Shown here in pieces: positions 43,901 to 64,000 of a DNA stretch of 64,000 nt; within the stretch, counting starts at the first letter, position 1, and every line of letters begins with the position of its first letter. The stretch is from assembly GCF_025526975.1 (NCBI RefSeq), contig NW_026515670.1, positions 1,116,001 to 1,180,000 of the forward strand, written 5' to 3'. The position numbers and the translations under genes are program-made. Under the pieces are notes generated by a model. That model ran no database searches, had not been told where the DNA came from, and saw only the letters and a program-made list of their open reading frames with translations. Source of the stretch: Fimicolochytrium jonesii. Its lineage: Eukaryota.

Positions 43901-44268
43901 ATTGGGGGGGAGAAAGGATCTGCGCTCAACACCACTGCCTCAGCCCTTGATCCTGGCCGTGACATCAAGGTGCGGCCCCACAATCCCATGGTCCTCAAAC
44001 TATTGACAAGACATGGGGATCTAGTGATTATGGTTTGTAGCCATCGGCTCAGTAATCTATTTGAAACCATTGCGTGATTGACGCTCTTATGTCACAGCAT
44101 AATACAGCAGTACAGACACATTACGAGCACTCGGTGCAGCCCCATGGCTTGCGGCTATGCGTCACAGGCAGGACTTTGGTGTCGGCGGGTGGATCAGCGC
44201 CAGCGGCTGAACCATTTGAGGCGGCTGAAACGTATGGGCTCAAGGTCAACCCTGCCCCAGTGGTTTAA
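40974..44268 (+). CDS. AlkB-type 2OG-Fe(II) dioxygenase with N-terminal SRA/YDG-like and Cys-rich regions (multi-exon)
   Basis: WCETRQELCEGTPYFRSYQS, FVSHGGG, RYAVLGW, CRFQWLD; CxxC pairs (CKKC, CELC, CAVC); dioxygenase motifs NELL, YHDD, WSIGS, HGDLVIM, YEHSV, RLCVTGR. Start may be 41214. Confidence 0.75.
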
Positions 44269-45043
44269 CCATGTGAGGCCAACACCAATCCGCCCCACCA
44301 ATCTTCTGGAGGAAACCAGAGCCCGCAGAGCCCAGTTTGCCATAAGATGGCAGTACAGCATAGGATAAAGATCTTGCGTGAGGTGCAACCCCTAGCGTAA
44401 CGAGATAGATAGTTTTGTGGTGATTCTACATGACTTGGCTATGCAACAATGATTCTGTGTAAATACACCGAAAACTCTTTTTATGGCATACACCTGCCTA
44501 CATTTGAAAATATGAAAGGCATGGCGACTAGTCGCATGTGGAATGAATCGTGAGAGCAAACGGTGGGTAAAGGACCATGTGAAGAATGAATGTGGTTTCC
44601 AAATAGCTATTCAAATTTCTACATCGAGGTCATATACGGAGGCGTACAACCGACAGAGACATTATTACATGTTGTTTTCCCCGTCAGGATCACTTTCAGG
44701 TTCGCAATCAAGGTCAGCTCCAGCTTTCGACCTACTCTGCTGTTACTGTTTGCCTTGTTTTCGCGGGTCAGCCATGCGCACGGCCTTGTCCGTGTATGTA
44801 CATGCGCCATCTGTCGCCCTCCTTCCCCCCTCCGCATTCGAGAAAAAATCTTCGGTATGGTGGATATGGTATCACGTTTGTTGAAGGGGTTGAGCGTGCA
44901 TATGACCAACTCTACTACAAGGCACGAGAGAGCTCCGGAGGCATTTGTGAGGGGGTGGTAGTCGTCGGGGTTGAGAACGATCGCAGGTAGGGAAAGTGGA
45001 TCCCCTTGGTTGCTCCAATGGCTGACCTTCAGTAGGAACATAA

Positions 45044-45587
45044 TCAGTGGGTAAAGACAGGGTAAAGAAGGCCCTGAACGACCTCCAACTCATTCTCAGA
45101 AGGTTGAGACTTTTTTGGTCTGCCAGATGGTTTCTTTGACTGGTATGAGGTTGCGTTGTTCGAATCCTGATTGCTGTAAACTTTGATAGTCCTCTTAACA
45201 GCGGTGAGGCTCACGTTTTCCAGTCTCGCTATTTCACACTTATTCTTGCCTGCTTTATGCAGTGCAACTATGGCTGCCCTCTTCTGTGGGGTGAGAGGCT
45301 TCCCCATGCCGTCGCTCCAGTGTTGTTGCTGTCTGTGGTAAGGTATCTGTGGCAAGATGTTGGCCAAGATGGGAGAAAGGGGATCTCGCAATTGCGGTGG
45401 TCAACCATCCTTGCTGGTGAGGCACGGGGTGGGCGCAGCTTTATGGACCTAGACCAGTCAGTTACTAACTACGTAAGTGTCCATAAAGCTGTGCACCCCC
45501 CCATAATTGAAATCAAAGTCGGTGAGTATGGCGTCGCGGCAGTCGCTGGTTTAATTCGGGCGGGTAGCTTTATGGACACTGACTGTA
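45044..45587 (-). mobile_element. Truncated Tc1/mariner-like transposon: one terminal repeat plus N-terminal HTH of transposase
   Basis: End reads TA|CAGTCAGTGTCCATAAAGCT on the minus strand (45587 leftwards); ORF MGKPLTPQKRAAIVALHKAG...EIARLENVSLTAVKRTIK...SGRPKK is a paired-like HTH plus GRPK motif; no DDE domain or second TIR seen. Confidence 0.75.
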
Positions 45588-45775
45588 TATGTGTGTGTGT
45601 ATACTACGCTCGCTCCATCTCCTATTGCACGTACGCTGGGAATCACTAGGGGAATCTAGCACTAACAGCCTCTTTGTCCCCTATAATCCAGGGTCATTCC
45701 CCACCATGTGCAGGAATCCACACATCGCCTTCATAGCGTTAGAGCATGGGCCAGTTCTGGTTGATGACGGCATAA

Positions 45776-48555
45776 TCAAATCGCATCTTTCTGCTTCTTG
45801 TTCCGCTGCTTGGCGCCGCTGATGTTGGGGTTGATGACGCTTGCTGGCGCGGGCTTCGCCGAGTTCTCTGTCGTGGCATTCTCAGCAACTGGCTTCTCTT
45901 TTTCGTCCTCCTCGTCCTCCTCGTCAGACGAATCCACGTCATCTTCACCAACTTGCCCCTACAAGACATGCCAGTGCTCAGTTCGAACTTCAGTACGAAT
46001 GCCTGAATCTGAGAATCACTTACGAATTCATTCCTGCGTCGCTTGTCCTCACGGTAAACCCATCGCTGGTACAGGTAGACAAAGAACACCACGTCGTCAC
46101 GGAGACAGGCGAGACGATGCAGCCACGGCATCTTGATGACGAATGCGAACAGATCGTCTGTAGGAGGAAGGATTCAATCAGTATGGAAATCGAACGACGG
46201 GGGTTAAAAAGCTCGATGTGGTGATGTCTGACGCACCAACGAAAGTGTTCAGAGCTGGTAAGGAGAAGGCTGGTTAGTTGCGGGCTCGAGAGGATTTGAG
46301 AACGGATATTGCAACTTACCCTTGTACATGAACGTCTTCCAGGGCATATGCGCAACAGACTTCAACTTGTAGTTGACGAACAATTGCGGTGTCATGGTGA
46401 TGAAGCCTATGGACCGAAGATCAGACATGTATTCGACTATGACCTTGATGCAACGCACTGAACCTACCAAAGGCGTAAACGAAACCAACGAGCGTTCCAA
46501 TGATGTACGAATACCATCCCTTGTGTTCTTCGTAAACCAGCGAGTAGATGGCGTATGCCGCCAGACATGGGTAGAGAGCTCGGGAGACGTATTTGAATGC
46601 CATCTGGATCGACGCGTTAAAACGGTAACCCGTAGACGCACGGAAAACGCGACAATTTACCTCATCGTATTTCTTGGTTTTGGAAGCCAATTTGGAGGGT
46701 TTGACCCGATCGACGAACTCAACGTAAGGAAACTCCGGTTTACGCTGGATGCATGAGTAATTAATTACCGCTTGCGACGACGCGTCAGTAAACGGAAAGC
46801 AACCAACCTGTACGATAACGGTCTTCTGAATCTTCCAGATTTCAATGAGAAGGCCGACGCCGGTGCTGATAATGATCATCCAGCTTGTGTCGTTATCCAG
46901 AAGATATCTGCCAAGGAGCTTTAGCTTTAGAGCCTAGGATCATGGGAGCGAGAGGTACTTACAAGAAGATCACAGCCTGAAAAGCCACGTTCATGGTTAT
47001 AGCCCGGAACGAAAGTCCTTCCATGTCCTTACGCTTACGCCAGAACTGGATGTCTGCAGAACGACACCGATTGAAAAGACGGACATATGAACCTGATTTA
47101 CTGGTCTTCACTTACCATTCTTGAAAGCAAGGATGTCAAAAATGCTGTGCAACATAGACACGAACATCGTGACTCCGAGAAGATAGGGGTTGGTGTCCAT
47201 GAACATCCGCTTCATGTCGTCCGTCTCAGCAGCCGCAACGCCAAGTGTCGTCTGCTGCACGCGAAGGTTTTCCTCCAAGCCAGTGAACACCTGGTACTTG
47301 AAGTACGAAACGGGGTTGTACGAGAGCGAAAGGTTGAGGGTCCTGCGAAGACGTATGTGAGAGAGATCTGAGATAGCCGCGAGTGCATTCTAGCAACACC
47401 CTACTTGACGGTTTCATTGATGGGAGACAACTGATCAGCTGTCAGCCAGAAGTCATTGACGTAGAACGGCGGCTTGTAGTGCACGCCATCGGACTCGAGG
47501 CCGAAGTCTTGGACAGAACGTTTAGTGGAAGGATTCTCCGTCAACATGCATAGGAGGGTTGCTCTCACTTTTCAGCATCAAAGGTGGCGTGGTAGGGGGT
47601 AGGGGTGCCACATGATTCAGCACGTTCAGGGTGACATTGGGCCACCAGTAAGATATGATTGGAACCTGTCCATCCTCTTGCTCTTCCTCGGGCTACACGC
47701 GATGTCAGTGACCTCTCCTCTAGCATAGGCTCCCGCAACAGGCCTACCTCGGGATCAGCTAAGCTTCCTTCTGAGGCCACCAATTTCTTGGTCTTCTTGA
47801 CTTTGCGCTTGGGCATGAAACGGGTGAGCACTGCGGTAAAGGGAAGTTCAGAGGTGATTCACTTTACTCAATGGCGTCAGGCAGCATAAGTACATTTGCG
47901 AGAGTACAAAGGGCTTGGCGCTGGCTCCTCAGGTTGACGCTCAACATTCCCAGTGGGGTTCAGGATGAAATGGGCGTACAGACTCCCGTTTCGTTGAACG
48001 CTCTGTCATCAGCAGAAGCGTAAGCCCGGAAGGAAAGCAGGTTGTTCGAAGTGCGTGTGACCGACCTCGGGCACGTCGATGGTAACTTCCTTCGTTCTTC
48101 CCTTCCACTCTCCGAAGAAAATGTCCTTCTCTTCCCAAACGGGTGTGGCATCCGGGTTGAAATTTTCCGTCTCGGTGAGAAATGCAGAAAGAGTCTACCA
48201 ACGACGCAGTAGTTGAGCCATGCGGTTCACCAGGGGTAGCATAGAGATCTGAACAGGTACTCACAGCTCTGTCGCCAGGCAACCAAGAGGGTTGAAGGGT
48301 CCGGGTCTGGACATGAACCTGGTGGGCGGCCGGCACCGGACCGTCTTGCCCGGTTGGTGCACTGCCCTGTACGACATCTGCTGTCTCCTGGTTTCCTTTG
48401 AAGGCCCTTCCGACGGCGTTGACCGCATATGAAATCAGCAGGATACGGCCGATACTCGTAGCGATAGAGTAGAAGCCGCCGCCACCGGCTTGCTGAGCGT
48501 TGGGAGCGCCGCCAGGAGCAGCAGCAGCAGCAGCAGGTGCAGCGGGAGCGCTCAT
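45776..48555 (-). CDS. CLPTM1: CLPTM1-family membrane protein (multi-exon)
   Basis: DTNPYLLGVTMFVSMLHSIFDILAFKN, GLLIEIWKI, TKKYDE, FITMTPQLFVNYKLKSVAHMPWKTFMYK, MPWLHRLACLRDDVVFFVYLYQRWVY, RRNEFGQ. Confidence 0.92.
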
Positions 48556-49057
48556 TTGAAACAGCTCTGTCTGTGGGATGTGCGGACTTGTGTTGGGAAA
48601 GCCCGAGTGATGGCTGCTTGGGGCTGCGAAAGCTTCGAATGCCCTTCCCAGAAGGACAGCGGACGGACGGACGCGCGCGGAGTCCCTGGGAACCCAGGCA
48701 CCAGGCACAGAGGTAACCATAACCCAGACTCGTCTTACCCGAGAACGATACCGCGGCTCACTGACTGGCATCCCAGCCAACGACAGAGGCAAGAAGCTAC
48801 AACTTTCACTCCTAAGTACAGTATTTTACAGTACGTGCAAAGGACGGGGCCCAAAATATGTGGCCCTTTGGCGCTTTGGGGAACTCATGATACTATTGCA
48901 TTGGCACCTCCTTTTGCATATCCTCAGGTACTGTACTGTATGTCTGTATGTCCACTATACACTCTCTCGCTTTATCTGCTACGTGTGCCAACCCTGAGAT
49001 GCATTCACTGACTTCATATTACTTATATTACAAGCAGAATCTGGAGCAACGTCTCTC

Positions 49058-51205
49058 TCAAGGCCTATCGAGCATCATGAGCGCCGCTTCTTTGTGCGGT
49101 AATTGTATGTTCCCTCGGAAGGAAAAGCCGTGGTTCCCCAGATACCCAACCATCTTGGCATTGTCCGCCCTCGGCTCCAACACGATTCGCTGCGTCGACG
49201 CGCAATCGCTCCATATAAAATCCATCAGGCCCGTCAACCACACGGCTACTCTGTGAGGACCCCGAAAGTCTTCTTCACCCACCAACACGTGCATGCCGCG
49301 GTCGTAAGCGTGGGCGGTGTAGTATCCAGCAAGAAGATCTTTTGCGGCCCAGTAGATCTCAAAGTACGCGAAAGGGGTATCATCGAACATGCCGATGCAC
49401 GGTATGGAGTGAGGAGAAGCGAGGATCTTCGATACGTATGCCGTTTGATGGGCTTCGGTGCCTTCCTCTTGCCAGTACTTGTGAACTCGGGGGTTGCTGT
49501 GCCATCTTGCCAGCATGGTGGCATCGCCAATGGGGTCTGCCACGCGAAAGGAGAATGTCTCGTTGAGCTCGGGTATGAACCGAGAGAACAGGATCGTTGC
49601 TGGTGCGGGTTTTGTAGGGTACTCGACATGCTCTTTCTCGCCATCTCGAGAAGGCTTGCCGGACACTGGGGACGCCGGCGGAGTCAGGTTGGGTGTGAGG
49701 TGCGAGGTCGGCATTGCGTTGGGCGTTGATTGAAGTTTCATCCCTTTAAGGTGTGCTTTGATCGATTCCACTACTTCACCGCCACGAACGCCTAGGACCG
49801 AAAGCAGTGTGTCCGACAGGCCGTGTGTGTGCTCGCAGCATCCTTGAAGGTAGATCGCGGGCTGGAACCGAGATGGGTCAATCACTTGCGCCTTGTAATC
49901 GCGTCCCACCAATAAGTGGGACGTGGCCGGATCTCTCCGCAAGTACGCCATGAGAGGCGCCAGCATAGTCTCATGAGCCGACCGCTCGTAACCTGTGGCC
50001 AAGAACACGGCATTCAGCGTAAGGCTCTCGTAGATGGACGCAGCACCACGTCCGCGAATCAAATGGAGTATCACGCCTCCATTTGGTGCTTGTTCCATGG
50101 CGACCACATTGCGACCAGGAAGAAGCGTGCACTTGCGCTTGCCCGCGTGGGTCGGCAAGCCTTGCTGGTATAGCATTCCGTAAATTGAATCGATGAGGTT
50201 GGAGTTCACTACCGAGTAATTCGTGGCACCGTTGCGAGTGCGATGCGTCTGGCGATCCTGAGCGCTCATTTGGTAGAACTCGTCTCGGTATTCAGGATTG
50301 AAGACCTCGTTGACAAAAGGCGATGCATCAGAGGGACGCAGTGCCGTGTCGCGGAAGATCAGCTTGATTGTTGCGTTAGGGTAACGGTCGCTCAGATCCT
50401 AGGTCGGAAGGTTGATGGTTGCGCCCGAGTGCGTGACAAACATTGAAACAGTTCTCACCATAAAAAGCTCTGCCCCAGACTGCCCTTGACCGATGACAGC
50501 AATGGTGTACGGCGCATCTCGGTCAGGAAGCATACTCTGCACACGGTGGATATATTGCGACGAGTGCGCTACCGCCGGACAGTCACGCGACGAGGTGTTG
50601 TTACTGGCTGCTGCAAAGTACATGCGTGCGAATTCGGGATACTTCGGTTGCCCGCCGACGGCCATAACCAGCGACTTTGTCTCACGAACCGATCGCAAAC
50701 CGGTGCTGGTGTTTTCCGACTCGACGCGAACACGCGAGACGACCCCGGACTTGTCGCACACGACCGGTTCGATTGAAAGAACCCGTTCGCCGTAGGTGCA
50801 GCTGTTATCGAACTTGGCGGCGACCCATGACAGGTAGTCGTTGAACTCTTCGCGATACGGGGTCCACGATCCAAGATTCATGAACGGGACGAGGCGGTCG
50901 TTCTCGTGGAGGTATTTGACGAACGAGAAGCGGCTGGAAGGGTTGCGCAGCGTAACGAGATCTTTGAGGAATGATATCTGCATCTTGGAGCCGTCGAGGA
51001 GCATGCCTCCGTGCCAGCAGAACGATGCTTGCTTTTCAAGGAACTCGACCTTCATGCGGTCAGCTGAAGAAGTGGTGTTGAGGTCTGCCGTGCTGATGAG
51101 CCCCTCATCTGCCATGGCTGTGGCGATGGATAGTCCCGCCGGGCCGAACCCGACGCAGAGGACATCACTGCAGTCGGTTTCTTGGGTCGAGGCTATGGAC
51201 GACAT
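49058..51205 (-). CDS. sidA: L-ornithine N5-monooxygenase (SidA/IucD family) fused to C-terminal N5-hydroxyornithine acyltransferase (IucB/AlcB-type GNAT); about 695 aa, one intron 50399-50458
   Basis: FAD motif CVGFGPAG, WHGGML, MQISFLKDL, NADPH motif GQGQSG, NYSVV, FLATGY, THGLSDTLLS; no stop before acyltransferase motifs WHSNPRV, YFEIYWAAKD, DRGMHVLVGE, EPRADN, LPHKEA. Confidence 0.92.
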
Positions 51206-53363
51206 GGGTATATCTGTCGGTGATTTGTGGGTGTTCTGAGGTGATGAGACGGCCGCTGAGCTTTCGGTTGAAGTGGGGGCAGTGAGAGTCCTCTGTACAG
51301 CTAAAATGCCCTCGAATCGATGAATAGGGACGGCGATGCTTATCCCCGTGTCATATACATATGGAAGAGGTCTACCATTATGCTCTCTGGAGGAACCGTT
51401 TGGGGAATGGATTGCGCAGATTGAAGGATGTGTACTACTTTCAGACGAATGCCTGCATCTCCGACATGCGCTGCGCTGTTCCGCACTCACTCCTCGATCC
51501 CGCCGCCGCCAAATGTTCACAAGACGCTTGCGGTCATCCCGTCCCGTCCGTGTCTTCCCTGGTATCCCAGGGATATGCTTTCCGCAGGTATGCCATCGTT
51601 AACGGACGATGTTGGCGAGGGAACAACCTTAAGCCCACATGGCCCCCGTCGCACCCATTCCGTCTTGCTCAATTTGCAACCAAACGGAACACAGCGCAGG
51701 CATGTGCCCCGCGGGCCTTTGATGCCGGGGATGGATCATCTTTCACGATGAGACGCTGCCATTATCCATATCCATGAAAATCTCGGAATGCGTCTGCGAA
51801 TAGCCAGAGTCGATGCATCTGGCGGCAGGTTTGAACAGCGGCACCACTGGCAGTACGTCATTTTGGTCATGATGTGAATGCATGGTGAGTTGAATTTGAG
51901 GGTCGGCTGGAGTCGACGCTTCCGAGACTCGGAAGCCAGACAAATTCGACGCGCGTCAGTTCGGGATGGAGCGCTACGCGTAGACTTAAGGACTTAATGA
52001 CCCGCGCATGTTCGTGCCGAGCCTCAATCGGCTTGCCAAAAACCTTATTTACCACTCGGGAGTCGGGTATGACTTTGATGTCTCAGCTGAGGGCCGACTC
52101 GGCTGGACGTCGCCGGGTTCCCGCTCGCACTGGTCGCAGCCCTCCTGAATGGCATCGTTTTGAGCATCCGTTTTGGGCTCCCAAATTTGCCCATGCGGTA
52201 AGGCAAAACGTGTCTGCAGCAACTATCCTCCACGTCCATTTTCCAGCAGCGCTTGTCCTTTGGCAAATCCGTCGTACGGGGAGAAATACCTTGCCTCGGT
52301 GTTTGAAAAAAGCATGTCTGGAATGTAGAGCCATGTTCTATCTCGATCTAGCATGGATGAGAAGAAATGGTCGACTATGATTCGGAATAAAACTATTATG
52401 CAGCCCACCCCGACTTATGGCACTGTTAGATGGCCGCATGAAACTCAACGTATGGTAGTAATGTATTGTCGAATGAGATCCAACAAGTGCCCGCGTCTCC
52501 TGCGTAGCAATGACCAAGGCGGCGCCGCCATATTAGTGCATTTAGATGCAAAGCACACCCACTCCCAAGCATCGTATCATTTGTGGTAGCTCTCTGTCCA
52601 ACTGTTATCAAGGACGTAAGCACTTGCAGCTGATGAAACAGGAGTACGAAGAAGCAAAGAAGTCATTGGAACTAATGAAACCTGAGGAGCAGTGGAATCA
52701 GTGTTCTGTGCAAGGGCCTTGTATCGACAAGGCGCCTCTCACCACCAACTGGAGAGCGATTCGACGAACACATGGCGCGTAAGTAGAGGAGAATGAGCCG
52801 ACATATGGTATGACCCACCCACTGCCATGAAATGAGCACGTCTTTTCCTGTCATAAGATAGCTCAATACCTACATCACCGTTGTGGCCAGCCTGAGTCCT
52901 TGGTTCAAAAGGGATGCAGCCTCATTTTGTTCCGGAACCTGGCCAACGTTCTTGGCGAGGCACGCGAAAGGCGGATAGGCCCTTTTCTTCTAAGACCGTC
53001 CCCATTGCACAGAAGCGAATCGACGGTAGTCAGTCTCTTACCCACCACAAGTCAAGATAAGGATGGGTGGAGTTTTCGCTCATTAAAATTAGCCACATAT
53101 ATGAGTCCAAACCATGGTGGATTGGTGGATTGGCCGAACTCTTCCTCATGCAGCTGTCCTCGGACCGCTGTCTGCCTCTGCTTCTGCGGTCCGAAAATGA
53201 CGGGCGCGACAGCTGTCGAAAAACACGTCATTCGCGCCCTCAAACACCGCCGGCTCACACCTGCGTTCCTTCGGTCCTCACTTTGCATAAAGACCACAGA
53301 GGTGACGCCAGCACAACAGAACCCCTGCATAGTACTCCCAGCAACTTGTTAGGACGCAGCACC

Positions 53364-55199
53364 ATGTCGTTAGGACAGTGTTTCCCACCGGCGCCGCGCT
53401 TCGTCCGTCGGACTTGTAGTGCGGACCTCTCCCGTCGCAGTTTCGGCAGCGACTTCGAACCACGCCGGTCGGTAGACTCGGGTCCCGTTTACGTGCAGCC
53501 AAGATCCAGCACCGACCTTGGAAGGCGTCCGCACGCTCGCCCAAGGCGTGCACAGTCCTCCCAACCCATTGTCTGGTCGGTAAGCGCCACTCCGCTGCCT
53601 TCACCGCCGCTGTCGAATAATCATTCGCTGGACGTCCCGCCCACCTACGTAAGTTTGCCAGCGCTCTGCTTCATCCCAGACATCTTGGACGTCAATCTAA
53701 ATTGATAACCTTCGCCCTTTTTACTGACAGGACGTCGCCATGTCCGACAGCGACGGCTCGTCAATGCGGAGTAGCTCTGAGGTCTCTGTTCGAGCTGCTC
53801 CGATGCCCGACCTGCCGGTGCCTTCAACGTTGCCTCAGAGCCCTGATGTTCCGCCGCCGGCGTACCCTCGCACCTCACGGCCGTCGACTTCGGCAGGACA
53901 AAGAGCCTTCAATTCTCCTCCGGACGCCACATGCCTTGTACGTATCCCTGGCGCTGGGGACTTCTTCATCCACCGCGACTATGTGTCTCCCTACAGCACC
54001 ACATTGCGCGATCTTCTAGACCCCCTATATCGCCCGACGCAGCGCACCCTCCGCATTCGTGCAGGGCCTGAAGTCGTCTACTGGGTTCGCGAAGGCGAAT
54101 ACACCGCGTTATCGCCTCCCCGTATGTCGGCGAACTCGCCCAGGACGGCAGCTGGATTTTCGACCGAGCCCGGGACGGCTTTGAAGCGACACAGATCCTT
54201 CTCCGACTTGTTCACCTCTGCCTCCCGTTGGTCTCAATCCCTTCTGTCTCGCCGGTCGTCTACGGCTTCCATACCCGCGGCCGACGAAACTGCTCGCATC
54301 GAGCAGATCATTGGCGGTCCTGCAACCGCTAATTCCTTTGACACGTATACGACTAAATCCGCATTCTGGGCTCATGTAAAACTGCACAAGTCTACCCACA
54401 GTGGTCGTCGCAACTCGCTCTCGCCCAGTAGGCTCAGGAAAGCGGTGCCGCGGCCGATCCTTTACATCGATATTCCTTGTGCTGCTGTGTTTGGCCCGCT
54501 GCTGCATTGGTTGTATACCGGCAGTCAGAGGGACTTGATTGATGCTTTGACGGCCGGTGGGGCTGAGAGCGCTTTCTTTGACTTTCTGAAATGCATTGAA
54601 CAGCTTGGGATCGTGGATGAGGTATACGAGGCGATTGGGGAGTATCTTATCAAGGTATGTTGCGCCCAAAAATCTCCACGGGGGGGATGGCACTGCAAGC
54701 TTGATGTACTCGTCGAGCCTCGACTTTGAACATTCAGCTCATGAACTCCTCCGTACAGAACCCGCATCTGACAGTAACCCACGAGTTCTGCAAAAGGAAC
54801 GTGCCGTTCCAATTACTCCGAACTTTTTTCGCTCGTTGCGATTGGGGCAATACCGATAAGCTCGCGGTTCTGTTGTGGTGGTCGCGCTTTGAGGAAGAAG
54901 AAAACGACTACTTCTTACCCACTTCGTCACCATCTCTCGCCGATGCCATGGCTACCCCGACGCCGTCCATGCGAGCGCTCCTCCGCAACGCATCCGCCTT
55001 CCTGACGAGGCCTGCGACAGCGGATCCCGAGATGGAATTACTCGCGCTATACGTTGATTTGATGGAAGTGCCGGATGTGCATATCGAGGAGTTGAGGAGG
55101 ATGTTGCCACTGGCGTACGATCGAGTAGTTGGGGGCGGCGGGAGGCGGGCGATGTCTCCTACTCGCCATCCGAGAGGCGGCGTAGATGGTTCAACATAG
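53364..55199 (+). CDS. Hypothetical protein with split BTB/POZ-like domain (3 exons)
   Basis: DATCLV...FFIHRDYVSPYSTTLRDLL and IPCAAVFGPLLHWLYTG resemble BTB halves separated by an insertion; GT-AG introns near 53649 and 54655. Confidence 0.55.
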
Positions 55200-55453
55200 T
55201 AGACATTAGACGTTAGAAGGCATGGTGTGGCTCCCCTCTGATATTATCCTCTATAATACGCGCCGGTGAAAGCGGCACCGAGTATCCCATGCGCTGGCGC
55301 CTGGGAATCCTGACAGATGTTCTAGTAGATTCATTCTTTTTTCTCTTCTGTAAAGCGTTTCGCATTTCATTTTCGATATATTAGGTGGCATCTACACGTT
55401 CCAATAATAAGTTAAATCGACCAGTAGTTACGCCCTTGAAAGTGCTAGGATAT

Positions 55454-57150
55454 CTAGGAGACAAGAAACTTGAAATTCTGGTAGAAGGTCAACATTGGAT
55501 TTTCTCCAGACTTTGTCCTCGTTTCGCTGAGGTTCGCATTCCGTTCCAGGAACTCTTGCTGTGTCATAACTGTCGCAGGGGTACTACGTCGACCCTCTCC
55601 CCCAACGACCTTGTTGTACATATCCCTCATCAATTCAAAATTCGTGGGAAAGAAGATGTCGAACCATCCCGGTTGCACAAGGTACGTAGAGCACGGAATC
55701 ATCATGCCTTGATACCTAGTTTGCACGACCGGTGCATCGATGCCCGGAACAGCGTCCGGGAGAGAATCGAAGTCTGAGAGGATAAGACGATGTTTCGGAA
55801 ATCGGGCGTGAAGCTGGTCAAATAGTCTCAGACACATTGTAGGAAGGAATTCCGGCTCTGTGAGATTTGGTGCAAACGGAAGAATGGAGCGGAGGTTGCG
55901 GCGCCATGGATGGGATATGAGGGGCGATCGGTACCCGAGGCTTGCCCGCAACTCTAAGTACCGTTGAATGGTAGGGTCATTGAGAGGTTCATAGGCTTCC
56001 TGGTAATCCCCGTCCTCGTCGATCAGAACGACACCCTGTAGAGGTGCCCCTGTCGCATAGTCGTACCGCACCATGTCGTGGGCAAAATTATCCTGTGTGG
56101 GAAGCTTCTGTCAGAATACGCCCGGGGGAACGAGGAGCCATACCACCTCTACTCACAATGACCTCCATTGCGATAATGAAGCATGAGTCCGGAACTTGTT
56201 CGTCCCACGTAAAGATCGACTTGTTGATGATTTCCACGCAGTTGTGCCTCCGTGTCACGTCCCTTACGTCCTGCCTTTCTGATTGTCTTTCTGCCAGTTT
56301 CGAGCTGATTTCGATGATCCGGTACCTCGTCCGCTCATACAGTTCTGGTTCATACATTTGGATATAATCCAAGATGTTGACCATCAGCGTTCCATTTCCG
56401 GCCCCGACCTCATAGATAATCAAATCTTTTATCCCTCCATCATCTCGCTTGAACTCTGAGACTATGTGCTTCGCTACAGCGTATCCATACCATGGCTGAG
56501 GTGAAGATTAGCATAAACCGTCTACAGGAGTTTGACGAGCTGCAGTCACATACCTTGAATAATTCAGTTGGCGTATGCCAAACCTGCCTGGCAATATCAT
56601 TCGCTTCGTTGAAATCACCCTCCACTTCCCTATACAGCGCCGACAAGTGGTTCATAAACTCATAGCTGTCGCGGATATCCTTAAATCGGATATTCTCGGC
56701 GGGACTGAAAATGAAGGCCTTTTTGGAAAAGTAGCCATAGGATGGGTTGTACAGCGAATCGTCGATGAAGTCCCGCACAAGCATGCGTGCGCAAGAGGGC
56801 GGGTTCGTAGAGGCAGCGGCGTCGATGGCAGTCAAGCGCCGATATGATTCAACTGGAACAGGTTCGTGTTTCGGAGCTCGTCGTTTGTCCATTGCATCCC
56901 TGTTGGCGAGTACTTCCAGTTTAGCGAACCCACAAATACGCAGGATGCGATACAATACAAGTCAAATGACAAAGTAACCCTCTCAAACGCACCAGTAGTT
57001 CGTACGCTGGCAAACGCCAGCGTGGAAGCTCCGCCGTGCACTTGGCCCACAGTTGTTGAAGGTAGAAGGTGCTACTGGCTTTCTCAGGCACTTAATATCT
57101 CTTGGCCGCCGGTGGCAGACGGCGGCGGCACTCCTCCTTGCCGCGTTCAT
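55454..57150 (-). CDS. SAM-dependent methyltransferase, NDUFAF7/MidA family, probably mitochondrial
   Basis: RDFIDDSLYNPSYGYFSK, WHTPTELFK, IYEVGAGNGTLM, DNFAHD, ILSDF, FDIFFPTNF; Arg-rich first exon MNAARRSAAAVCHRRPR at 57150 resembles a targeting peptide. Confidence 0.85.
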
Positions 57151-57635
57151 GGTCCCGCTTCTGTTGTTCCTACTGAAGCCGGTTTGGAGTGCTTTGGTTT
57201 GTTGCTATTGGCAGCGAGTTCGAATAAAATCTGGCCGGCGAGCATTGGGCGAACATCCGTCGCGTTGAAGAGGTCGAAGACACTTGGAGATGTCAGCAAT
57301 GTCGAGCTGCAAACAACGATTCTTGAGAGTCTTCAGGCGTACTGCTATCTTCCAGGAATCATCAGTTGACACATCCAAGGAGGGTCTATCGGTCAAAAGC
57401 TTCAAAAGGCTAGGGCCGAGTTGAGTCATCGAGCAACTGGTAGAACATCTCTCCTCCGGGAGTCCGGGGGAAAAGTGGTGAAAACGGCTCGTCGGTTGGC
57501 CGAGCAAACCGCTCATAAAGCCTACAGCAAGGATACCCTCGATACAGTCATTACGAAATACAGCTTGCAAAGGAAAACGGGGGGAGGGTATAGGATAGGG
57601 CGTAGTAAGAAAGGGAACCGCCCCTGGGCTTTCCT

Positions 57636-58623
57636 ATGAAAGCCTATCGCCCAGACGACCAACGCTACGTGTACGAGTCTGCGTACCAGCAGCGCAAAGG
57701 CTCTCGGTTAGAAAGCGGGACAACGAAGCAGGCGGCGAGCGCTCTATCGTCGCATAACAGCGATGTTGGACCGCCCAGGAAAGATACGAGCGGAGGTGGT
57801 TCGTCGAGACCGCGGTTTCCGGCCTTGGTGGCCGCGGCATCGCTCATCGCACATGTACCGACCGGGTCGAATGTGAGTTTCGTTGTTCCTATGCATGTTC
57901 ACATGCGATGTCTGTGTGGATTGTCGTTTTCGGGACTCAAGAGCGTCCCCTGTCATCAACAGAACCGATATAGTCCCACCACTAATGCAACGAACCCGTC
58001 GGTACCTGCCCCGACCTTTTCTTCCACAACAAGAACAACAACAACATCTAAGGCAACAGTCCAGGGCACCGCAGCAACGAGTTCATTAGTAAGCCCATCG
58101 CACTCCCATCCGTCCACATCCGCTTTCCCTCCCACCGTTCAATACTTTGATACCGCTCCAAACGCACCCGACATCACTAGCATGACCCCCGCCCACTTCC
58201 TTCACTCCTCCCTACCACCAGCCCGCCTCCCACCTCTCCTCCGTCCTCTTCCACCTTCAACTTCATCTCCACTGGAGCTCCGACCGCACTCCTTACCTGC
58301 CGCACATCCAGCCGCTCCATCATATGGTTTCTCGGCGCCGGCGCCACTGCCTGCGATCTCGCCCAATCATCGGCGGCGCTCTACTGATATGGCTTACAGC
58401 AGATCGAGTGAGATAGGGATCGGTGCAAGTAATGGGTCGATAAGCGCAGATGAGGGACGGCAGGACAACAAGTCGAGAGTGCGACGGCTTTTTGAAAGTG
58501 AACGGAAGGGAAGACGGAGGGGATTCTTGGTATGTGTACGTTGCTGTACTGCTGATGTGATCTAGAATCGCGGCTATATGGCTGACCCGTGCACTTCCTG
58601 TAGGACCCGTTCGGATTGACCTG
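57636..58623 (+). CDS. Hypothetical low-complexity Ser/Thr/Pro-rich protein
   Basis: 309-codon ORF with plausible introns (GTATGT near 58529, GCTGAC branch point and TGTAG acceptor); no recognisable domain. Confidence 0.35.
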
Positions 58624-59095
58624 AACCAGTCACATGTTCCGGAACCGGTTTCCGCTCGCACGGACTAGATTAGATTAGCTTCCACGACCCAGTTATCATG
58701 GGGCGAATGTGAACATCTAGATGGGTTAGTTGGGGATATGCGTGCGAGACTACTCTGGGGCGGAGTGCTCGGCAATGTCAAATGATGTGCTATATGAGGT
58801 TTGTGCATGACTTTGAAGAATGTTAAAATCCGACCCTGCCCGCCCATCTGACGGATTTTTCCAGTTCGAGCTGACTCGATAGTCTCGCCATCCAACGACA
58901 GGGCAGCGGGAAGATGGACGGACGCAACATATGCCACCCTTGTATATATGTGCGCTGCTAAAGTAGACTTTGTGTGCAAGACACAAGGAATGCAGCCGGT
59001 AATCTATTCTTGAAAGTCCGCGTGTGCAATGGGACCTTATATTCTACGGGTATACATTACATTCTTTGGGTATGTGTGTCGCAAGCTATGTAAAT

Positions 59096-59909
59096 CTACA
59101 ATTTGCTTGATACGGCTATCCCGCCCTTTCCCTTTGCTCGAACTTTACCTCTTATAAAAAGAGGATCTGTCCTTCTAAGCATCAAAAAGGCCGCAGTTTT
59201 GTGTGGAAGTCTCACAGCGCGAACAAAGGAAACGCCTGCGGTGCAGAGCAGACCGATGAGCTTGCCATGCGTCAAGGAGGGCTCCATAACTAGGCGCTGC
59301 GTTTCGCAACAGTCGGAGAAGATAAACTCAGGTATGGCCTCGATCCAAGCCTGCACGCGGTCCACACCTCGATACTTTGTTTCGCCCACGAGAAGATGGA
59401 CCCCTCGATCGTACGGCTCGGCGGGATAGTATCTACCAAACAGATCATAGGCCGCCCAGTACACTTCGAGGTACATGAATGGTACGCCATCGAACGCGGC
59501 GATGCAGGGAATGCTGTGCTTGGAGGATAGGACCTTGTTCAGGTACTGGCGATGATGGTTTTCATCCCCTCCTTCTTTCCAAAATTCGCTGTTTTCAGAT
59601 GGGTCGAATCAGCGCTCCACCGGCGGAAGGGATATCTCGATACACACGCTACTCTAAAGCATACCTCACGCGAGGATCGGAGTGCCACCTAGTCAACATG
59701 GGGATGTCGGTCGACGGATCAGCGACTCTGATCGTAAAGGTCTCATTGAGTCCCGGCATGAACTTGGTGAATATGAGCGTTCCTGGCGCGGGCTTTGGTG
59801 GGATGGGATGAAGACACGTCTGGGATGAAGCAGAGGCTGGCTCTGCATCGGTGGACACCGACGTGGGGAGTCGCTTCTCACCGATGTTGTGAGCCTGATG
59901 TTGCTGCAT
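59096..59909 (-). CDS. Stand-alone N5-hydroxyornithine acyltransferase (IucB/AlcB-type GNAT; SidF/SidL/Sib3-like catalytic domain), intron 59589-59664
   Basis: Spliced product about 245 aa: WHSDPRVSEFW, YLEVYWAAYD, DRGVHLLVGE, MEP, LPHKTA; collinear with the C-terminal domain of the 49058-51205 fusion. An extra upstream exon is possible. Confidence 0.88.
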
Positions 59910-60896
59910 GTTGTGAAATGGGCTCTACAATAGGATTTGGCGGTGAATGACGCGATATGCAAAGGTGAAGGTGATTTGGCGGTGATATGGGCTCTGTCGC
60001 AGGGCTTGGGATGAAGGTTGGTCGACCGACGAGCGACGACTGATGCGACATGACTTTTCAAGCTTCTCTGACATCAACGACAGTTTCAATGGGGGATTGA
60101 CTTCCGACCTCCTCTGACCAGAAAGAATGCATGGGGTGGGAAGACTCGTTCCGGCTGCGGCCCCTGCATGCGTAGTGGTACGGTCTGGTGTCGGAGGCTC
60201 ACCCGCGTCAACCGAAAAGAACGAAGCGCGACGCGTCCGTATCAAATACGGGAGGTTTGGGCAGCTGATGACCAGGATCATCCCGTCGAGAAAATAACAG
60301 TATGTACAGAAAGTCAAGTCCCAGTGCTTCCGGAATTTAAGGTTTTTTTTGCGTCGTTGAGATCCGGCGGTGTCCCCCCCGGGTGCTGCGCGCGGGCTTT
60401 TGGAAATAAATAATTTCCCCGTTGGTGCTGCGCAGTGGGCATCCCGCATGGAACTCGGACAAGCCTCCAAGTCGGATGGGAGTTGGATCTGGACGGCCCC
60501 AGTCTTCCGCACTTTTGTTCGTTCTGCAAACCGCCAGCGGCCACAGACTCCTCACAGATCCCGTTTCTTTGTCGGAACTCGTAAAGTCACGAGCGTGGGA
60601 CAGCCCCGCAACGGTTCCGAGAACCCAAGAATGGCCATCTTACGAGAACCGGGACAGCTGCTGCTGAGCGTCTCGCCCACTCCCAGGCGGCGCCCCTTCG
60701 CCGTACGAGAAGGTCGAGCGGGGCATACGATGCATATCTTACAAGAGCTTCTGATAGCGACCTAGAAAGCCTCTGTATTTTGCCATACTTTACCATCTTC
60801 AGCACGTTCTCTTGTTTTTTGAACAACATACACAATAGATATAGAGACGTTAAACGACGACAGTGCTATCACACATCATATCATAGTGTGTTCAAG

Positions 60897-63800
60897 ATGC
60901 TGGGCAATAGCGATGTTCGTCATGGCCTTACCACTACTTTCCCGAACTTGACCGGAAAGAATCTGTCTCTCAATGCCTGCGCTGCCGGCAACAGCACGAC
61001 AGCTGTTCTCACCACCGAACAGGTGTTCGATTTGTCTCGACCTCAAACGGAAGCCGCTTGCGAGGCTGCTTACGGGAAGGAGTCGTTCACTGGCATGCTC
61101 AGACTTGCGTATGCGCGGTTGATTAGCAGCTTTGTTGGTGAACAGGAAGTTGGGTTTTATATCACCGAGAGCGATGGAGGACCTGAAGGCCATGCAGCTA
61201 TTCGTGTCCAGTTTGACGCAAGGTCGTCGAACGCTCAGATGAGTGGGCGGTTGCAGCATGGAGGCTGCGTTCCTGATCCGGCGGTCGTCACAGATTGCAT
61301 GCTTTCCATTGACCTGGACGGCCGGCAAGCGGAGTCAGCCTTGGATACAGAGATGCGGGATGGATGTCAGGTATGTCCAGCGATTTACACAGCCGGACGT
61401 TTGCCTAAATATGAGTGCTGAAATGGCTTCGTCCCATGTAGTTTCATCTCCACATCTGCGCCAGCGAATCGAACGACCTTATTACCTTTCGGCTCGCGTA
61501 TCGAGCGACCTTGTTCCCGGAAGCATTTGCTCGTGATATTCTTGCTCAGTACGAGCAGATTCTCTGCTGGTTGATCGCACATCCCCAAACATCCTGCCTG
61601 GCGCATGTCGATTACTCCCGCATTCCGACTCGGGGGTTATCCATTCTCAATCCGACGCCTGTTGAGCACACTTCCAAGAATGCCGTCCAAGTTTGGCCCA
61701 CACTGCTGCACCAATTGGTTGAGCGTCAAGCCGAGCTTCATCCAAAGCGGGTCGCTCTCGAGTTCCTGCACTCTCTGGAGGACAACAGCCGCACGTTGCT
61801 CACCTATGCAGAGCTTAATGATCGCTCCAACCAGCTAGCCCGGCACCTTGTGTCATATGGCGTCTCTTCGGATGACAAGATTCCCCTCTGCATGGACCGC
61901 TCTCCCAACATGTACATCGTTGTGTTGGCGATCTTGAAAGCAGGCTGCGCCTTTGTTCCGCTCGCCAGTGACTTGCCTATCGATCGCTTCGGCTACGTGG
62001 TTCGCGAGGTAGGCCCCAAGTTGATCATCATCGACGGGAGTGCTCCTCGCGCAGCGCTCCAAAAGAATGTCATCGGAAGCGTCCCAATCTTGGATATTGA
62101 ATCGAACTTCGTTGACGACATGCGTTCGGCGCTACCTTCCGGCAATCTAAAAGTGTCCGTGGCCGCCAACAATCTGGCCTACATTCTATTGACAAGCGGA
62201 TCGACTGGCGTTCCGAAATTAGTGCAAATCGAGCACAAAGCTGCTGTGGAATCCATCCTGTCGCACCATGCCATCGTTTCTCACGACGAAACATCAGTGA
62301 TGCTAGCCGTCAGCTCCTACACTTTCGACGTCAGCGTCTTCGATATGTTCTTCCCCCTGTCCACGGGGATTCGCTTGGTATCCTCCTCGAAAGAGTTACT
62401 TCTAAGCAATCTCGAGGAGGTCATCAACAGTAACGGTATTACGCTGATGGAAATGACCCCTACGGTGGCTGGGATGCTCAGCCGCCAAGCGGTTCCCGGC
62501 ATCAAGCTGCTTCTGACCATTGGGGAAATGCTCACTCGCAAGGTTGTGGATGAATGGGCACCAGGAGGATGTCTCCTGCCTCTCTACGGACCGACGGAGT
62601 GCACAATCCATTGCACCTACGCACCCAACTTCTTGCCCGACACGAAGCCCACCGATATTGGCGTGCCTATGGACACCTGTTCAATGTATGTCATGCCGCA
62701 GCAACTCGACGAGGCAAAACCAATTTGCCTCGACGCCTTGCCCATTGGTCATGTGGGCGAGCTCTACGTGGGGGGACACCAAATCGCGCGAGGTTATCTT
62801 AACCGCCCAGAGGCAAACGCGAAATCATATTTCAACGACCCGTACAGCGGTGGCGGACGGATCTATAGAACTGGCGACTTGGTCCGGATGCTACCAAAGG
62901 GCACGCTCGAGATCATTGGGCGTGTCAGTAACGACTCGCAAGTCAAGCTTCGCGGCCAGCGGATTGAATTGCTTGATATCAGCCATCAAGTTCAAAGCGC
63001 GCACGAAAGGATTGAAGACGTGCTAACTGTTGTCGTAGCCGATGAGGAAGGAGCTGGAGGAAAGCTTTTGGTGTCGTACCTCGTTTGCGGGGCAAAGCAT
63101 GGCATGCACACTCTCTTTGAGTATGAAGGACTCAAAGTCTTGCAATCGCCGGTAGTCGAGCAGCTGGTTCAGGAAACCGTCGCCGCGCGCCTTCCTCCAT
63201 ATATGAGACCGAACGCCACGCTTCTGGTCGAAAGTATCCCTAAATCCAGTTCTGGCAAGGCAGATGTCCGACGTTTGAAGGCCGTCTTCTCCGAATACCA
63301 AAAACGACAGATGCGGAAAACCCTCGCATCCGAGACCGAGGCATTGACTAATGCCCTCACATTCGACGATCCTATCGCTGTCATCGTCAGGGATCTTGTC
63401 TGCGAAATCAGCCATACTGCCCCGACATCAGTAAGCCCGGAAACCTCGATCTTCTTCCTTGGCATCGACTCTCTTGCCTCTTTCGCGCTCTGCCGTCGCC
63501 TGAGGGCTCAAGGACTGAGCATCTCTATGTCCCAAATATTGAAGAATCCCACGATTGGCGGCATCGCGGCCGGCGTTCAAAAGGTCGCTGCCGCTCACAC
63601 GACGGACCCGGCGGCCGACAGCTTCAGGCAGCTGTTTACCGAGCAATTGGCTGGCATCAATCGTATTGGGATTGCGGAGGCGTTGAAGACCGATGCTTCA
63701 TCGATTGAAGACACCTATCCAGTCACCCCAGTCCAAGAAGGGCTTTTGACAGAAGCGTTGGCTGACCCAACTGGAAGGGCATTTTACGATCTCATCGTCA

Positions 63801-64000
63801 TTCGCGCCACACAGCCTGAAGCTACGAATCAACTAAAGGAGGCATGGCACGATATTGTCTCCGCGCATCCCATCCTACGCACTGGTTTCGTAGAGGTACC
63901 GCGATCACTCGAGGCTCCGTGGAAGCTCCTGCAGCTTGTCTGGACGTCAGAACAATGCGCAGCTTCTTTCAGCGAAGTAGCCATCGACTCTGAGGATGCG
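60897..64000 (+). CDS. Non-ribosomal peptide synthetase, SidC/ferrichrome-synthetase-like (partial; C*-A-T-C..., runs off window)
   Basis: Exon 1 60897-61370, intron 61371-61441, then an open frame to the window end (absent from the ORF track): LSILNP, ALEFL, LTYAELN, LAYILLTSGSTGVPK, FDVS, YGPTE, GELYVGG, YRTGD, QVKLRGQRIE, SGKAD, PCP LGIDSL, C-domain start YPVTPVQEGLL. Confidence 0.93.

What the first reader, a model, noticed from the sequence alone, without database searches (positions are those of the whole stretch)
49058..64000. Hydroxamate (ferrichrome-type) siderophore gene cluster in an apparently early-diverging fungus
Seen: monooxygenase-acyltransferase fusion, second acyltransferase and SidC-like NRPS within about 15 kb, the last two head-to-head across about 1 kb. 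Known: NRPS hydroxamate siderophores are characteristic of Dikarya, whereas Mucorales make NRPS-independent rhizoferrin. Inference: neighbouring genes (LKB1, Kv channel, TmcB-like) point to a zoosporic lineage, where I know of no characterised pathway of this kind. It would reflect either ancient retention or horizontal transfer followed by intron gain.
Basis: partly seen in the sequence, partly recalled or inferred. Interest (0 to 1): 0.85.

Follow-up and report, generated by a model that had tools for sequence, protein, structure and literature searches.

The report
Chytrid ferrichrome-type siderophore gene cluster
A chytrid fungus, from a group that papers describe as lacking this pathway, carries genes for a likely ferrichrome-type iron-scavenging peptide, including a fused ornithine hydroxylase-acyltransferase shared by many chytrids; this would push the pathway's origin back before the split of chytrids and higher fungi.

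Summary
The host is the chytrid Fimicolochytrium jonesii (100% protein matches). The locus has three genes. (1) A SidA-type ornithine N5-monooxygenase fused in frame to an IucB/SidL-type acyltransferase (695 aa); all six tested SidA active-site residues are kept. (2) A duplicate stand-alone acyltransferase ending in the peroxisomal signal SKL. (3) A divergently oriented NRPS 987 bp away. Its first A domain groups with module 1 of ascomycete NPS2 ferrichrome synthetases (100/99) and matches their pocket code at 9 of 10 positions. The fusion recurs in several chytrid orders, in Conidiobolus and partly in Basidiobolus; it was not seen in bacterial or Dikarya hits. Fusion and NRPS have consecutive identifiers in Spizellomyces and twice in Powellomyces. 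Chytrid orthologues keep A domains in the last three modules, including the module-5/6 domains that Bushley et al. inferred were lost from a six-module ancestor. Module-wise trees favour ancient inheritance over recent transfer. Caveats: the public model of this NRPS stops at 1101 aa (split annotation or real break; the rest lies outside the window), no product or expression data exist, and the trees lack basidiomycete and SidC-lineage sequences.

The parts
50459..51205 (-). Fusion gene exon 1: N-terminal half of SidA-type L-ornithine N5-monooxygenase
   Evidence: PF13434 E 5e-62; best PDB match A. fumigatus SidA; splice equals P0002
50399..50458 (-). 60-nt GT-AG intron of the fusion gene
   Evidence: only candidate of 10 that reproduces P0002
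49058..50398 (-). Fusion gene exon 2: rest of the monooxygenase, low-complexity linker, and C-terminal GNAT acyltransferase (AT1) of the IucB/SidL/MbtK type; stop at 49058-49060
   Evidence: PF13434 + PF13523 in one open frame; SidF 7QF6 E 4e-40; the public model P0002 omits the AT part
53739..55190 (+). Intervening gene, BTB-like, not part of the pathway (approximate ends)
   Evidence: no Pfam hit; ESM Atlas first hit putative BTB protein, 0.92
55394..56961 (-). Intervening NDUFAF7/MidA-type SAM methyltransferase gene, not part of the pathway (approximate ends)
   Evidence: PF02636 in two exons; family name recalled
59096..59909 (-). Stand-alone acyltransferase AT2, 245 aa, intron 59589-59664, ends in SKL (PTS1); local duplicate of AT1
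   Evidence: 54% identical to AT1 over 185 aa; sister to AT1 (95/68) inside a 99/97 clade with S. punctatus
59910..60896 (.). 987-bp divergent intergenic region between AT2 and the NRPS
   Evidence: 0 [AT]GATAA sites against 0.59 expected
60897..64000 (+). 5' part of a ferrichrome-family NRPS: partial C, A1 (pocket code DVFELILIHK), T1, start of C1; intron 61371-61441; open at the window end

Best explanation
The locus holds a SidA-type monooxygenase fused to an acyltransferase, a second acyltransferase and the start of a ferrichrome-family NRPS, which together likely make a ferrichrome-type hydroxamate siderophore by a pathway likely inherited from the common ancestor of chytrids and higher fungi. 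Shown: genes, domains, conserved catalytic residues, family placement and conserved linkage. Inferred steps: (1) the FAD/NADPH monooxygenase domain hydroxylates L-ornithine at N5. (2) The tethered GNAT domain, on a flexible ~48-residue linker, acylates the product in the cytosol, probably with acetyl-CoA, giving N5-acyl-N5-hydroxyornithine (AHO). (3) The NRPS, if complete like its orthologues (five T-C units, four or five A domains), loads glycine with A1, a second small residue with A2 where present, and three AHO with dedicated A domains, then cyclises the peptide; one front module would act twice, as shown for SidC. (4) AT2 carries a PTS1 and would supply a second acyl group from a peroxisomal acyl-CoA, as SidF does, or it is a decaying copy.
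For: Monooxygenase: SidA K107, S257, R279, N293, N323 and S469 are all identical in the alignment to 4B63 (positions counted by hand; roles from PMC7347517). Best PDB hits are ornithine enzymes (SidA E 2e-110, PvdA 8e-93) ahead of lysine and diamine enzymes. Both ATs keep the His and acidic residue aligned to Rv1347c H130 and D168 (the numbers and their catalytic role are recalled). NRPS: A1 code matches ChNPS2/FgNPS2 A1 (predicted Gly) at 9 of 10; 0 of 980 A domains outside the clade exceed 5 of 10; the method returns Bushley's codes 10/10 for all four Massarina NPS2 domains. Careful tree, 54 rows: chytrid plus ascomycete ferrichrome A domains form one clade (100/99). Window A1 groups with ascomycete A1 (100/99), chytrid A2 with ascomycete A2 (99/96), chytrid third/fourth A with the ascomycete AHO domain (92/96). 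AU tests reject a chytrid-only clade (p 2e-5) and an ascomycete-only clade (p 4e-10). C-domain tree: C1 of five chytrid enzymes with ascomycete C1 (99), terminal C with terminal C (99). Breadth: 9 of the 120 listed hits carry both domains (7 chytrid, 1 Conidiobolus, 1 unnamed). Of 20 NRPS looked up by name, 13 are other chytrid enzymes, 12 of them inside the clade. Linkage: S. punctatus KNC99503/KNC99504, P. hirtus g02351/g02352 and g04179/g04180 are consecutive. Monooxygenase tree: all fungal rows on one side of a 99 branch, chytrids outside the 41-row ascomycete clade. AlphaFold of the S. punctatus fusion: two confident domains, linker 461-508 under pLDDT 50, pTM 0.62.
Against: The public model of this NRPS (P0257) ends at 1101 aa and loses similarity to orthologues just after the C1 active-site motif. 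No downstream F. jonesii piece was recognised among the 120 and 150 listed hits. No metabolite or expression data. No GATA-box enrichment (0 vs 0.59 expected; 3 vs 1.5 expected). None of the 58 ORFs scanned hit a siderophore/MFS transporter family; intron-rich genes could be missed. A separate bacterial origin of the early-diverging monooxygenases is not rejected (p-AU 0.119). The trees have no basidiomycete and no SidC-lineage sequence (none of the codes searched matched one inside the clade). Bushley et al. state that the 10-residue code alone does not predict fungal substrates. AT2 has EPSLTH in place of the EPRxDN motif kept by most relatives listed.
Confidence: 0.7

Rival explanations
1. 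The pathway is real in chytrids, but the F. jonesii NRPS is truncated after module 1, so this locus is decaying or supplies AHO to an NRPS elsewhere.
For: P0257 ends at 1101 aa with a tail unlike any orthologue. AT2 has a long branch and an altered motif.
Against: 2,556 bp of exon 2 have no stop. The A, T and C1 motifs are intact. Public models of orthologues also break inside C1: P0328 starts there while P0395 of the same species is whole, and P0284 starts with a partial C. The same annotation set cut the acyltransferase off the fusion.
Confidence: 0.15
2. The chytrid pathway came by ancient horizontal transfer: the NRPS from or to an early ascomycete, and/or the monooxygenase and acyltransferase from proteobacteria.
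For: The genes are intron-poor (one intron each in the window). After the fusions, the best hits of exon 2 are bacterial IucB-like proteins (E 1e-51) ahead of the first fungal one (E 1e-40). A bacterial grouping of the monooxygenase is not rejected. Papers report no SidA/SidF homologues in Batrachochytrium and Mucoromycota. Window A1 resembles the NPS2 lineage, which Bushley found only in ascomycetes.
Against: Chytrid modules are sister to, not inside, the ascomycete clades that include Saitoella. The fusion spans several chytrid orders and Zoopagomycota. Chytrid ATs group with an ascomycete SidL-like protein apart from all bacteria (96/98), although long branches meet there. In 39 bacterial loci no ORF holds both domains; the adjacent order is AT then monooxygenase in 14 loci and the reverse in 1. 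NRPS A domains exclude bacteria and Mortierella (100/99).
Confidence: 0.2
3. The enzymes make a hydroxamate peptide whose main role is not iron uptake (intracellular storage only, or an antibiotic or signal).
For: No transporter or GATA signal was found nearby. Dikarya ferrichromes are often intracellular.
Against: Three AHO-type terminal modules in orthologues predict a hexadentate Fe(III) ligand. Most species of all fungal phyla, Chytridiomycota included, are reported to have SIT transporters.
Confidence: 0.1

Closest known systems
Ascomycete NPS2/Sib1-lineage ferrichrome synthetases (C. heterostrophus NPS2, F. graminearum NPS2, S. pombe Sib1; PMC2644324)
   Same: Same A-domain clade, module-by-module grouping for modules 1, 2 and 4, near-identical A1 pocket code, terminal C orthology.
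   Different: Chytrid orthologues keep A domains in all three terminal modules. Known types use one AHO A domain to load A-less T-C units. Most chytrid type-A enzymes have five T-C units, not six.
A. fumigatus SidA / P. aeruginosa PvdA
   Same: Fold (TM 0.87 by target length) and all six tested residues.
   Different: Fused to an acyltransferase; SidA and PvdA are stand-alone.
A. fumigatus SidL / SidF, E. coli IucB, M. tuberculosis Rv1347c
   Same: PF13523 GNAT domain with the conserved His. AT2 has a PTS1, as SidF does.
   Different: Only the ~190-aa GNAT domain is present; the N-terminal domain that SidF needs is absent. AT1 and AT2 have the DRGxH motif of the SidL-like and IucB group, not DRGRH as in SidF. 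AT2's PTS1 arose on a local duplicate, not by descent from SidF.
SID-clade A domains of Basidiobolus and Conidiobolus (PMC7466969)
   Same: Ferrichrome-clade NRPS outside Dikarya; these genera also carry the fusion, in part for Basidiobolus.
   Different: That work covers Zoopagomycota and Mucoromycota, and its main text has no mention of a monooxygenase. The two Basidiobolus NRPS in my tree fall outside the clade.
Sid1 NRPS for AS2488059 (six A domains; cited in PMC10192304)
   Same: Dedicated A domains for each AHO.
   Different: Reported to be of a different evolutionary origin from ferrichrome synthetases; the chytrid enzymes fall inside the family.

Membership tests
L-ornithine N5-monooxygenase (SidA/PvdA) | PF13434 domain with FAD and NADPH motifs | tested here: met
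L-ornithine N5-monooxygenase (SidA/PvdA) | Ornithine and NADPH residues K107, S257, R279, N293, N323, S469 | tested here: met
   alignment; roles in PMC7347517
L-ornithine N5-monooxygenase (SidA/PvdA) | Ornithine hydroxylation activity | not testable with these tools
   needs enzyme assay
Siderophore N-acyltransferase (IucB/SidL/SidF/MbtK) | PF13523 domain with catalytic His | tested here: met
   AT1 and AT2
SidF clade (peroxisomal anhydromevalonyl transferase) | SidF N-terminal domain and SidF-type motif and clade | tested here: not met
   AT1 and AT2 lack the N-terminal domain and do not group with the three DRGRH-type fungal rows
SidF clade (peroxisomal anhydromevalonyl transferase) | C-terminal PTS1 | tested here: met
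   AT2 only (SKL; chance about 0.003 for the consensus); absent from the 13 other early-diverging fungal fusion or partial proteins checked
Fungal ferrichrome synthetase (SID clade) | A domain inside the monophyletic ferrichrome clade | tested here: met
Fungal ferrichrome synthetase (SID clade) | Pocket code like a known ferrichrome module | tested here: met
   9 of 10 with NPS2 A1; control 0 of 980 above 5
Fungal ferrichrome synthetase (SID clade) | AHO-activating module(s) and terminal C in the same gene | tested here: inconclusive
   present in orthologues; outside the window here, and the public model stops at 1101 aa
Fungal ferrichrome synthetase (SID clade) | Product is a cyclic peptide with three acyl-hydroxyornithines | not testable with these tools
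   needs LC-MS/NMR
Hypothetical hexamodular ancestor (Schwecke/Bushley) | Six complete A-T-C modules, orthologous in order, in one protein | tested here: not met
   Two chytrid proteins are (A-T-C)x6, but their A1-A3 group with positions 3, 4 and 5. Type-A enzymes lack a position-3 A domain. Only the union of lineages covers all six.
Hypothetical hexamodular ancestor (Schwecke/Bushley) | A domains retained in modules 5 and 6 | tested here: met
   in chytrid orthologues and, for module 6, Saitoella; not visible in the window gene
Iron-regulated siderophore regulon (SreA/Urbs1 type) | GATA boxes and iron-repressed expression | tested here: inconclusive
   no enrichment; expression not testable

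The most novel reading that the evidence does not exclude
Chytrids keep the oldest form of the fungal hydroxamate pathway. A fused hydroxylase-acyltransferase, later split into SidA and SidL in Dikarya, feeds near-colinear synthetases that still carry the module-5 and module-6 adenylation domains predicted for the lost six-module ancestor. The pathway therefore predates the chytrid-Dikarya split, was lost in Mucoromycota and Batrachochytrium, and chytrids make undescribed ferrichrome variants.
Probability: 0.55. Interest if true: 0.88.

Novelty: new variant of a known kind. Interest (0 to 1): 0.76.

Why it matters
Papers from 2008, 2013 and 2024 treat ferrichrome synthetases and SidA/SidF/SidL as absent from chytrids. 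This locus and its relatives contradict that at gene level across several chytrid orders. They also make a long-standing model testable. Ferrichrome synthetases were proposed to descend from a colinear six-module gene that lost A5 and A6, and in 2023 no extant family member of that kind was named. Chytrid enzymes retain these domains, so the step from colinear to inter-module loading can be studied in natural proteins. S. punctatus carries the same linked pair and has a published transformation method (reference list seen). The fused enzyme is also a single-gene source of acyl-hydroxyornithine.

Tried and rejected
No whole genome is held, so the NRPS beyond 64000 could not be read. Sequencing-run search: none was listed; no evidence on expression. 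Earlier findings: three look-ups returned nothing. Rfam over 44000-64000: 0 matches. Search for short stand-alone relatives of AT2: 1 hit among 33 candidates, itself; weak evidence that AT2 is species-specific. Fusion as read-through of a bacterial operon: not favoured, because gene order in 14 of 39 bacterial loci is the reverse and no ORF holds both domains; long Inquilinus and Methylobacterium ORFs were checked and hold only the monooxygenase. The idea that the (A-T-C)x6 proteins of Spizellomyces 'palustris' and Rhizophlyctis are the ancestor itself: rejected by the A tree. The Chytriomyces NRPS (P0245) and two Basidiobolus NRPS (P0121, P0319) scored high but fall outside the clade. The metagenome scan (80 of 248 loci kept) gave ascomycete-like and bacterial monooxygenases and no fused locus. 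Aminoglycoside acetyltransferase hits to the ATs are far below their cut-offs. GATA/CCAAT scan: no enrichment.
Full report
Observation. Six-frame translation and Pfam confirm three genes. A minus-strand gene (51205-49058, one 60-nt intron, 695 aa) encodes an ornithine monooxygenase and, in the same exon and frame, a C-terminal PF13523 acyltransferase (AT1). A second minus-strand gene (59909-59096, one 76-nt intron, 245 aa) encodes a stand-alone acyltransferase (AT2) ending in SKL. A plus-strand NRPS starts at 60897, 987 bp from AT2, and runs off the window after A1-T1 and the start of C1. A BTB-like gene and a PF02636 methyltransferase gene lie between the fusion and AT2.

Host. Public proteins 100% identical to the monooxygenase and to AT2 are named Fimicolochytrium jonesii, Chytridiomycota, Spizellomycetales. 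Neighbours are fungal (chitin synthase, Zn-cluster factor, NOC3, CLPTM1) and base composition is uniform. The public annotation cuts the fusion at 464 aa ('partial'), which hides it.

The fusion. Of 1242 hits, the best 120 were listed; 9 carry both domains: Spizellomyces punctatus, Powellomyces hirtus (2), Rhizophlyctis, Nowakowskiella, Globomyces, a Chytridiales species, Conidiobolus coronatus and one unnamed JGI protein. Kappamyces and Basidiobolus ranarum fragments span the junction. Gaertneriomyces and S. 'palustris' have full fusions. No listed bacterial or Dikarya protein has both domains within the 245-781 aa searched, and none of 39 bacterial loci has them in one ORF. That these genera span five chytrid orders is recalled taxonomy. 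All six SidA residues with published roles are conserved. AlphaFold on the S. punctatus orthologue gives two confident domains joined by a disordered linker; its best structural match is SidA. This suggests tethering rather than a fixed channel (inference).

AT2. It is 54% identical to AT1 and sister to it, so it is a local duplicate. Its SKL matches the PTS1 consensus given for peroxisomal SidF and SidH; none of the fusions checked ends in a PTS1. It does not belong to the SidF group, so peroxisomal targeting would be convergent. Its altered EPRxDN motif allows either a new acyl donor or decay.

The NRPS. A search of 1.84 billion representatives with A1 ranked large chytrid NRPS first. Of 20 proteins looked up by name, 1 is the window's, 13 are other chytrid enzymes, 5 are ascomycete and 1 is Basidiobolus. 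Twelve of the 13 chytrid enzymes fall inside the clade spanned by named ferrichrome synthetases. The A1 pocket code DVFELILIHK matches NPS2 A1 at 9 of 10 positions and Sib1 A1 at 8; none of 980 outside domains exceeds 5 against the NPS2 code. In the careful 54-row tree (a subset of 133 domains; rows were dropped for run time) chytrid and ascomycete domains group by module, not by taxon: module 1 100/99, module 2 99/96, module 3 98/88, module 4 92/96, a chytrid-only module 5 96/97, module 6 unresolved. AU tests on 40 rows reject taxon-wise clades. The fusion and NRPS have consecutive identifiers in S. punctatus and at two P. hirtus loci.

Architecture. Type A, which includes the window gene, is (A-T-C)x5 in Gaertneriomyces and P. 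hirtus g04180, A-T-C-T-C-(A-T-C)x3 in P. hirtus g02352 and Cladochytrium, and has six T-C units in Dinochytrium. The last three A domains mostly carry AHO-like codes such as DVFDVGAIGK (8 of 10 to FgNPS2 A3; 1 of 980 outside domains reaches 8). Some score lower (Dinochytrium A5 4, Cladochytrium A4 5, Gaertneriomyces A5 6). Type B (S. 'palustris' 7021 aa, Rhizophlyctis 6693 aa) is (A-T-C)x6, but its first three A domains group with positions 3, 4 and 5, so it is not the ancestor in order. Bushley et al. postulated loss of the module-5 and module-6 A domains in both Dikarya lineages. Chytrids retain them, and Saitoella retains A6.

Origin. Module-level grouping means the multimodular gene is older than the separation of chytrid and ascomycete copies. 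Chytrids are sister to, not nested in, the ascomycete clades. The monooxygenase tree (98 of 163 rows) puts all fungi on one side of a 99 branch, but grouping the early-diverging enzymes with the nearest bacteria is not rejected (p 0.119). The AT tree joins chytrids with one ascomycete SidL-like protein (the label is my inference) at 96/98, with a long-branch warning. Without basidiomycete and SidC sequences, an ancient transfer is not excluded.

Main weakness. P0257 ends at 1101 aa, about 90 residues past the window, with a tail unlike orthologues. Models of related genes also break in C1, and the same annotation truncated the fusion, so a split model is more likely than a real break, but this was not testable. 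No product, expression or transporter evidence was obtained.

Literature. Ten searches listed no paper describing a chytrid hydroxamate pathway or this fusion; the library lacks most subscription journals. Seen: PMC2644324 (abstract, passages, sections 15, 26 and part 1 of 22); PMC10192304 (passages, Discussion); passages of PMC10500206, PMC2823734, PMC7466969, PMC8070225, PMC3709128, PMC7347517 and bioRxiv 2024.08.20.608788; PMC8887899 (term search only); PMC13322982 (passages; supplements searched except files 11 and 13-17). The last includes Fimicolochytrium and Spizellomyces genomes in a bulk BGC survey; 'ferrichrome' had no hit in the searched files. Supplements of the bioRxiv paper and of PMC7466969 could not be seen and may show which chytrids were tested. 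UniRef already gives several of these proteins an automatic ornithine monooxygenase label.

Verdict. This is a real locus and a new variant of a known pathway, in a phylum said to lack it, with a distinctive fusion and ancestral-like synthetases among its orthologues. Interest 0.76.

Noticed in passing
P0241 (TPX70384.1), P0243 (KAJ3033198.1): Chytrid NRPS with six complete A-T-C modules and three terminal AHO-like codes; a second chytrid type whose first modules group with positions 3-5. S. 'palustris' carries this type while S. punctatus carries type A.
   Followed up: partly
P0393 (Saitoella coloradoensis, 6115 aa): Taphrinomycotina synthetase (A-T-C)x4-T-C-A-T-C that retains a module-6 A domain; the S. 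complicata model is split in two (P0307, P0394).
   Followed up: partly
P0003/P0395 and P0004/P0392 (Powellomyces hirtus): Two separate fusion + NRPS pairs in one genome, with different NRPS architectures.
   Followed up: partly
P0245 (Chytriomyces hyalinus), P0121, P0319 (Basidiobolus): Large NRPS forming a supported sister group to the ferrichrome clade, apart from the bacterial rows used; product unknown.
   Followed up: no
window 45047-45400 minus: HTH ORF (PF13384/PF13551, below cut-off) followed by broken frames; looks like a decayed Tc1/mariner-type transposon (label recalled).
   Followed up: no
window 43085-44074 plus: Weak 2OG-Fe(II) oxygenase hit (PF13532, E 0.0015) at the start of a 330-aa frame; possibly the last exon of an AlkB-like gene.
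   Followed up: no
   Followed up: no
window 57609-58562 plus: 318-aa low-complexity open frame with no Pfam hit, just upstream of the AT2 stop; gene status unclear.
   Followed up: no
L108, L112, L114, L116 (Enhygromyxa, Nannocystaceae and Myxococcales loci): IucB-type acyltransferase at the C-terminus of 840-975-aa stop-to-stop frames, so possibly fused to another, unidentified domain.
   Followed up: no
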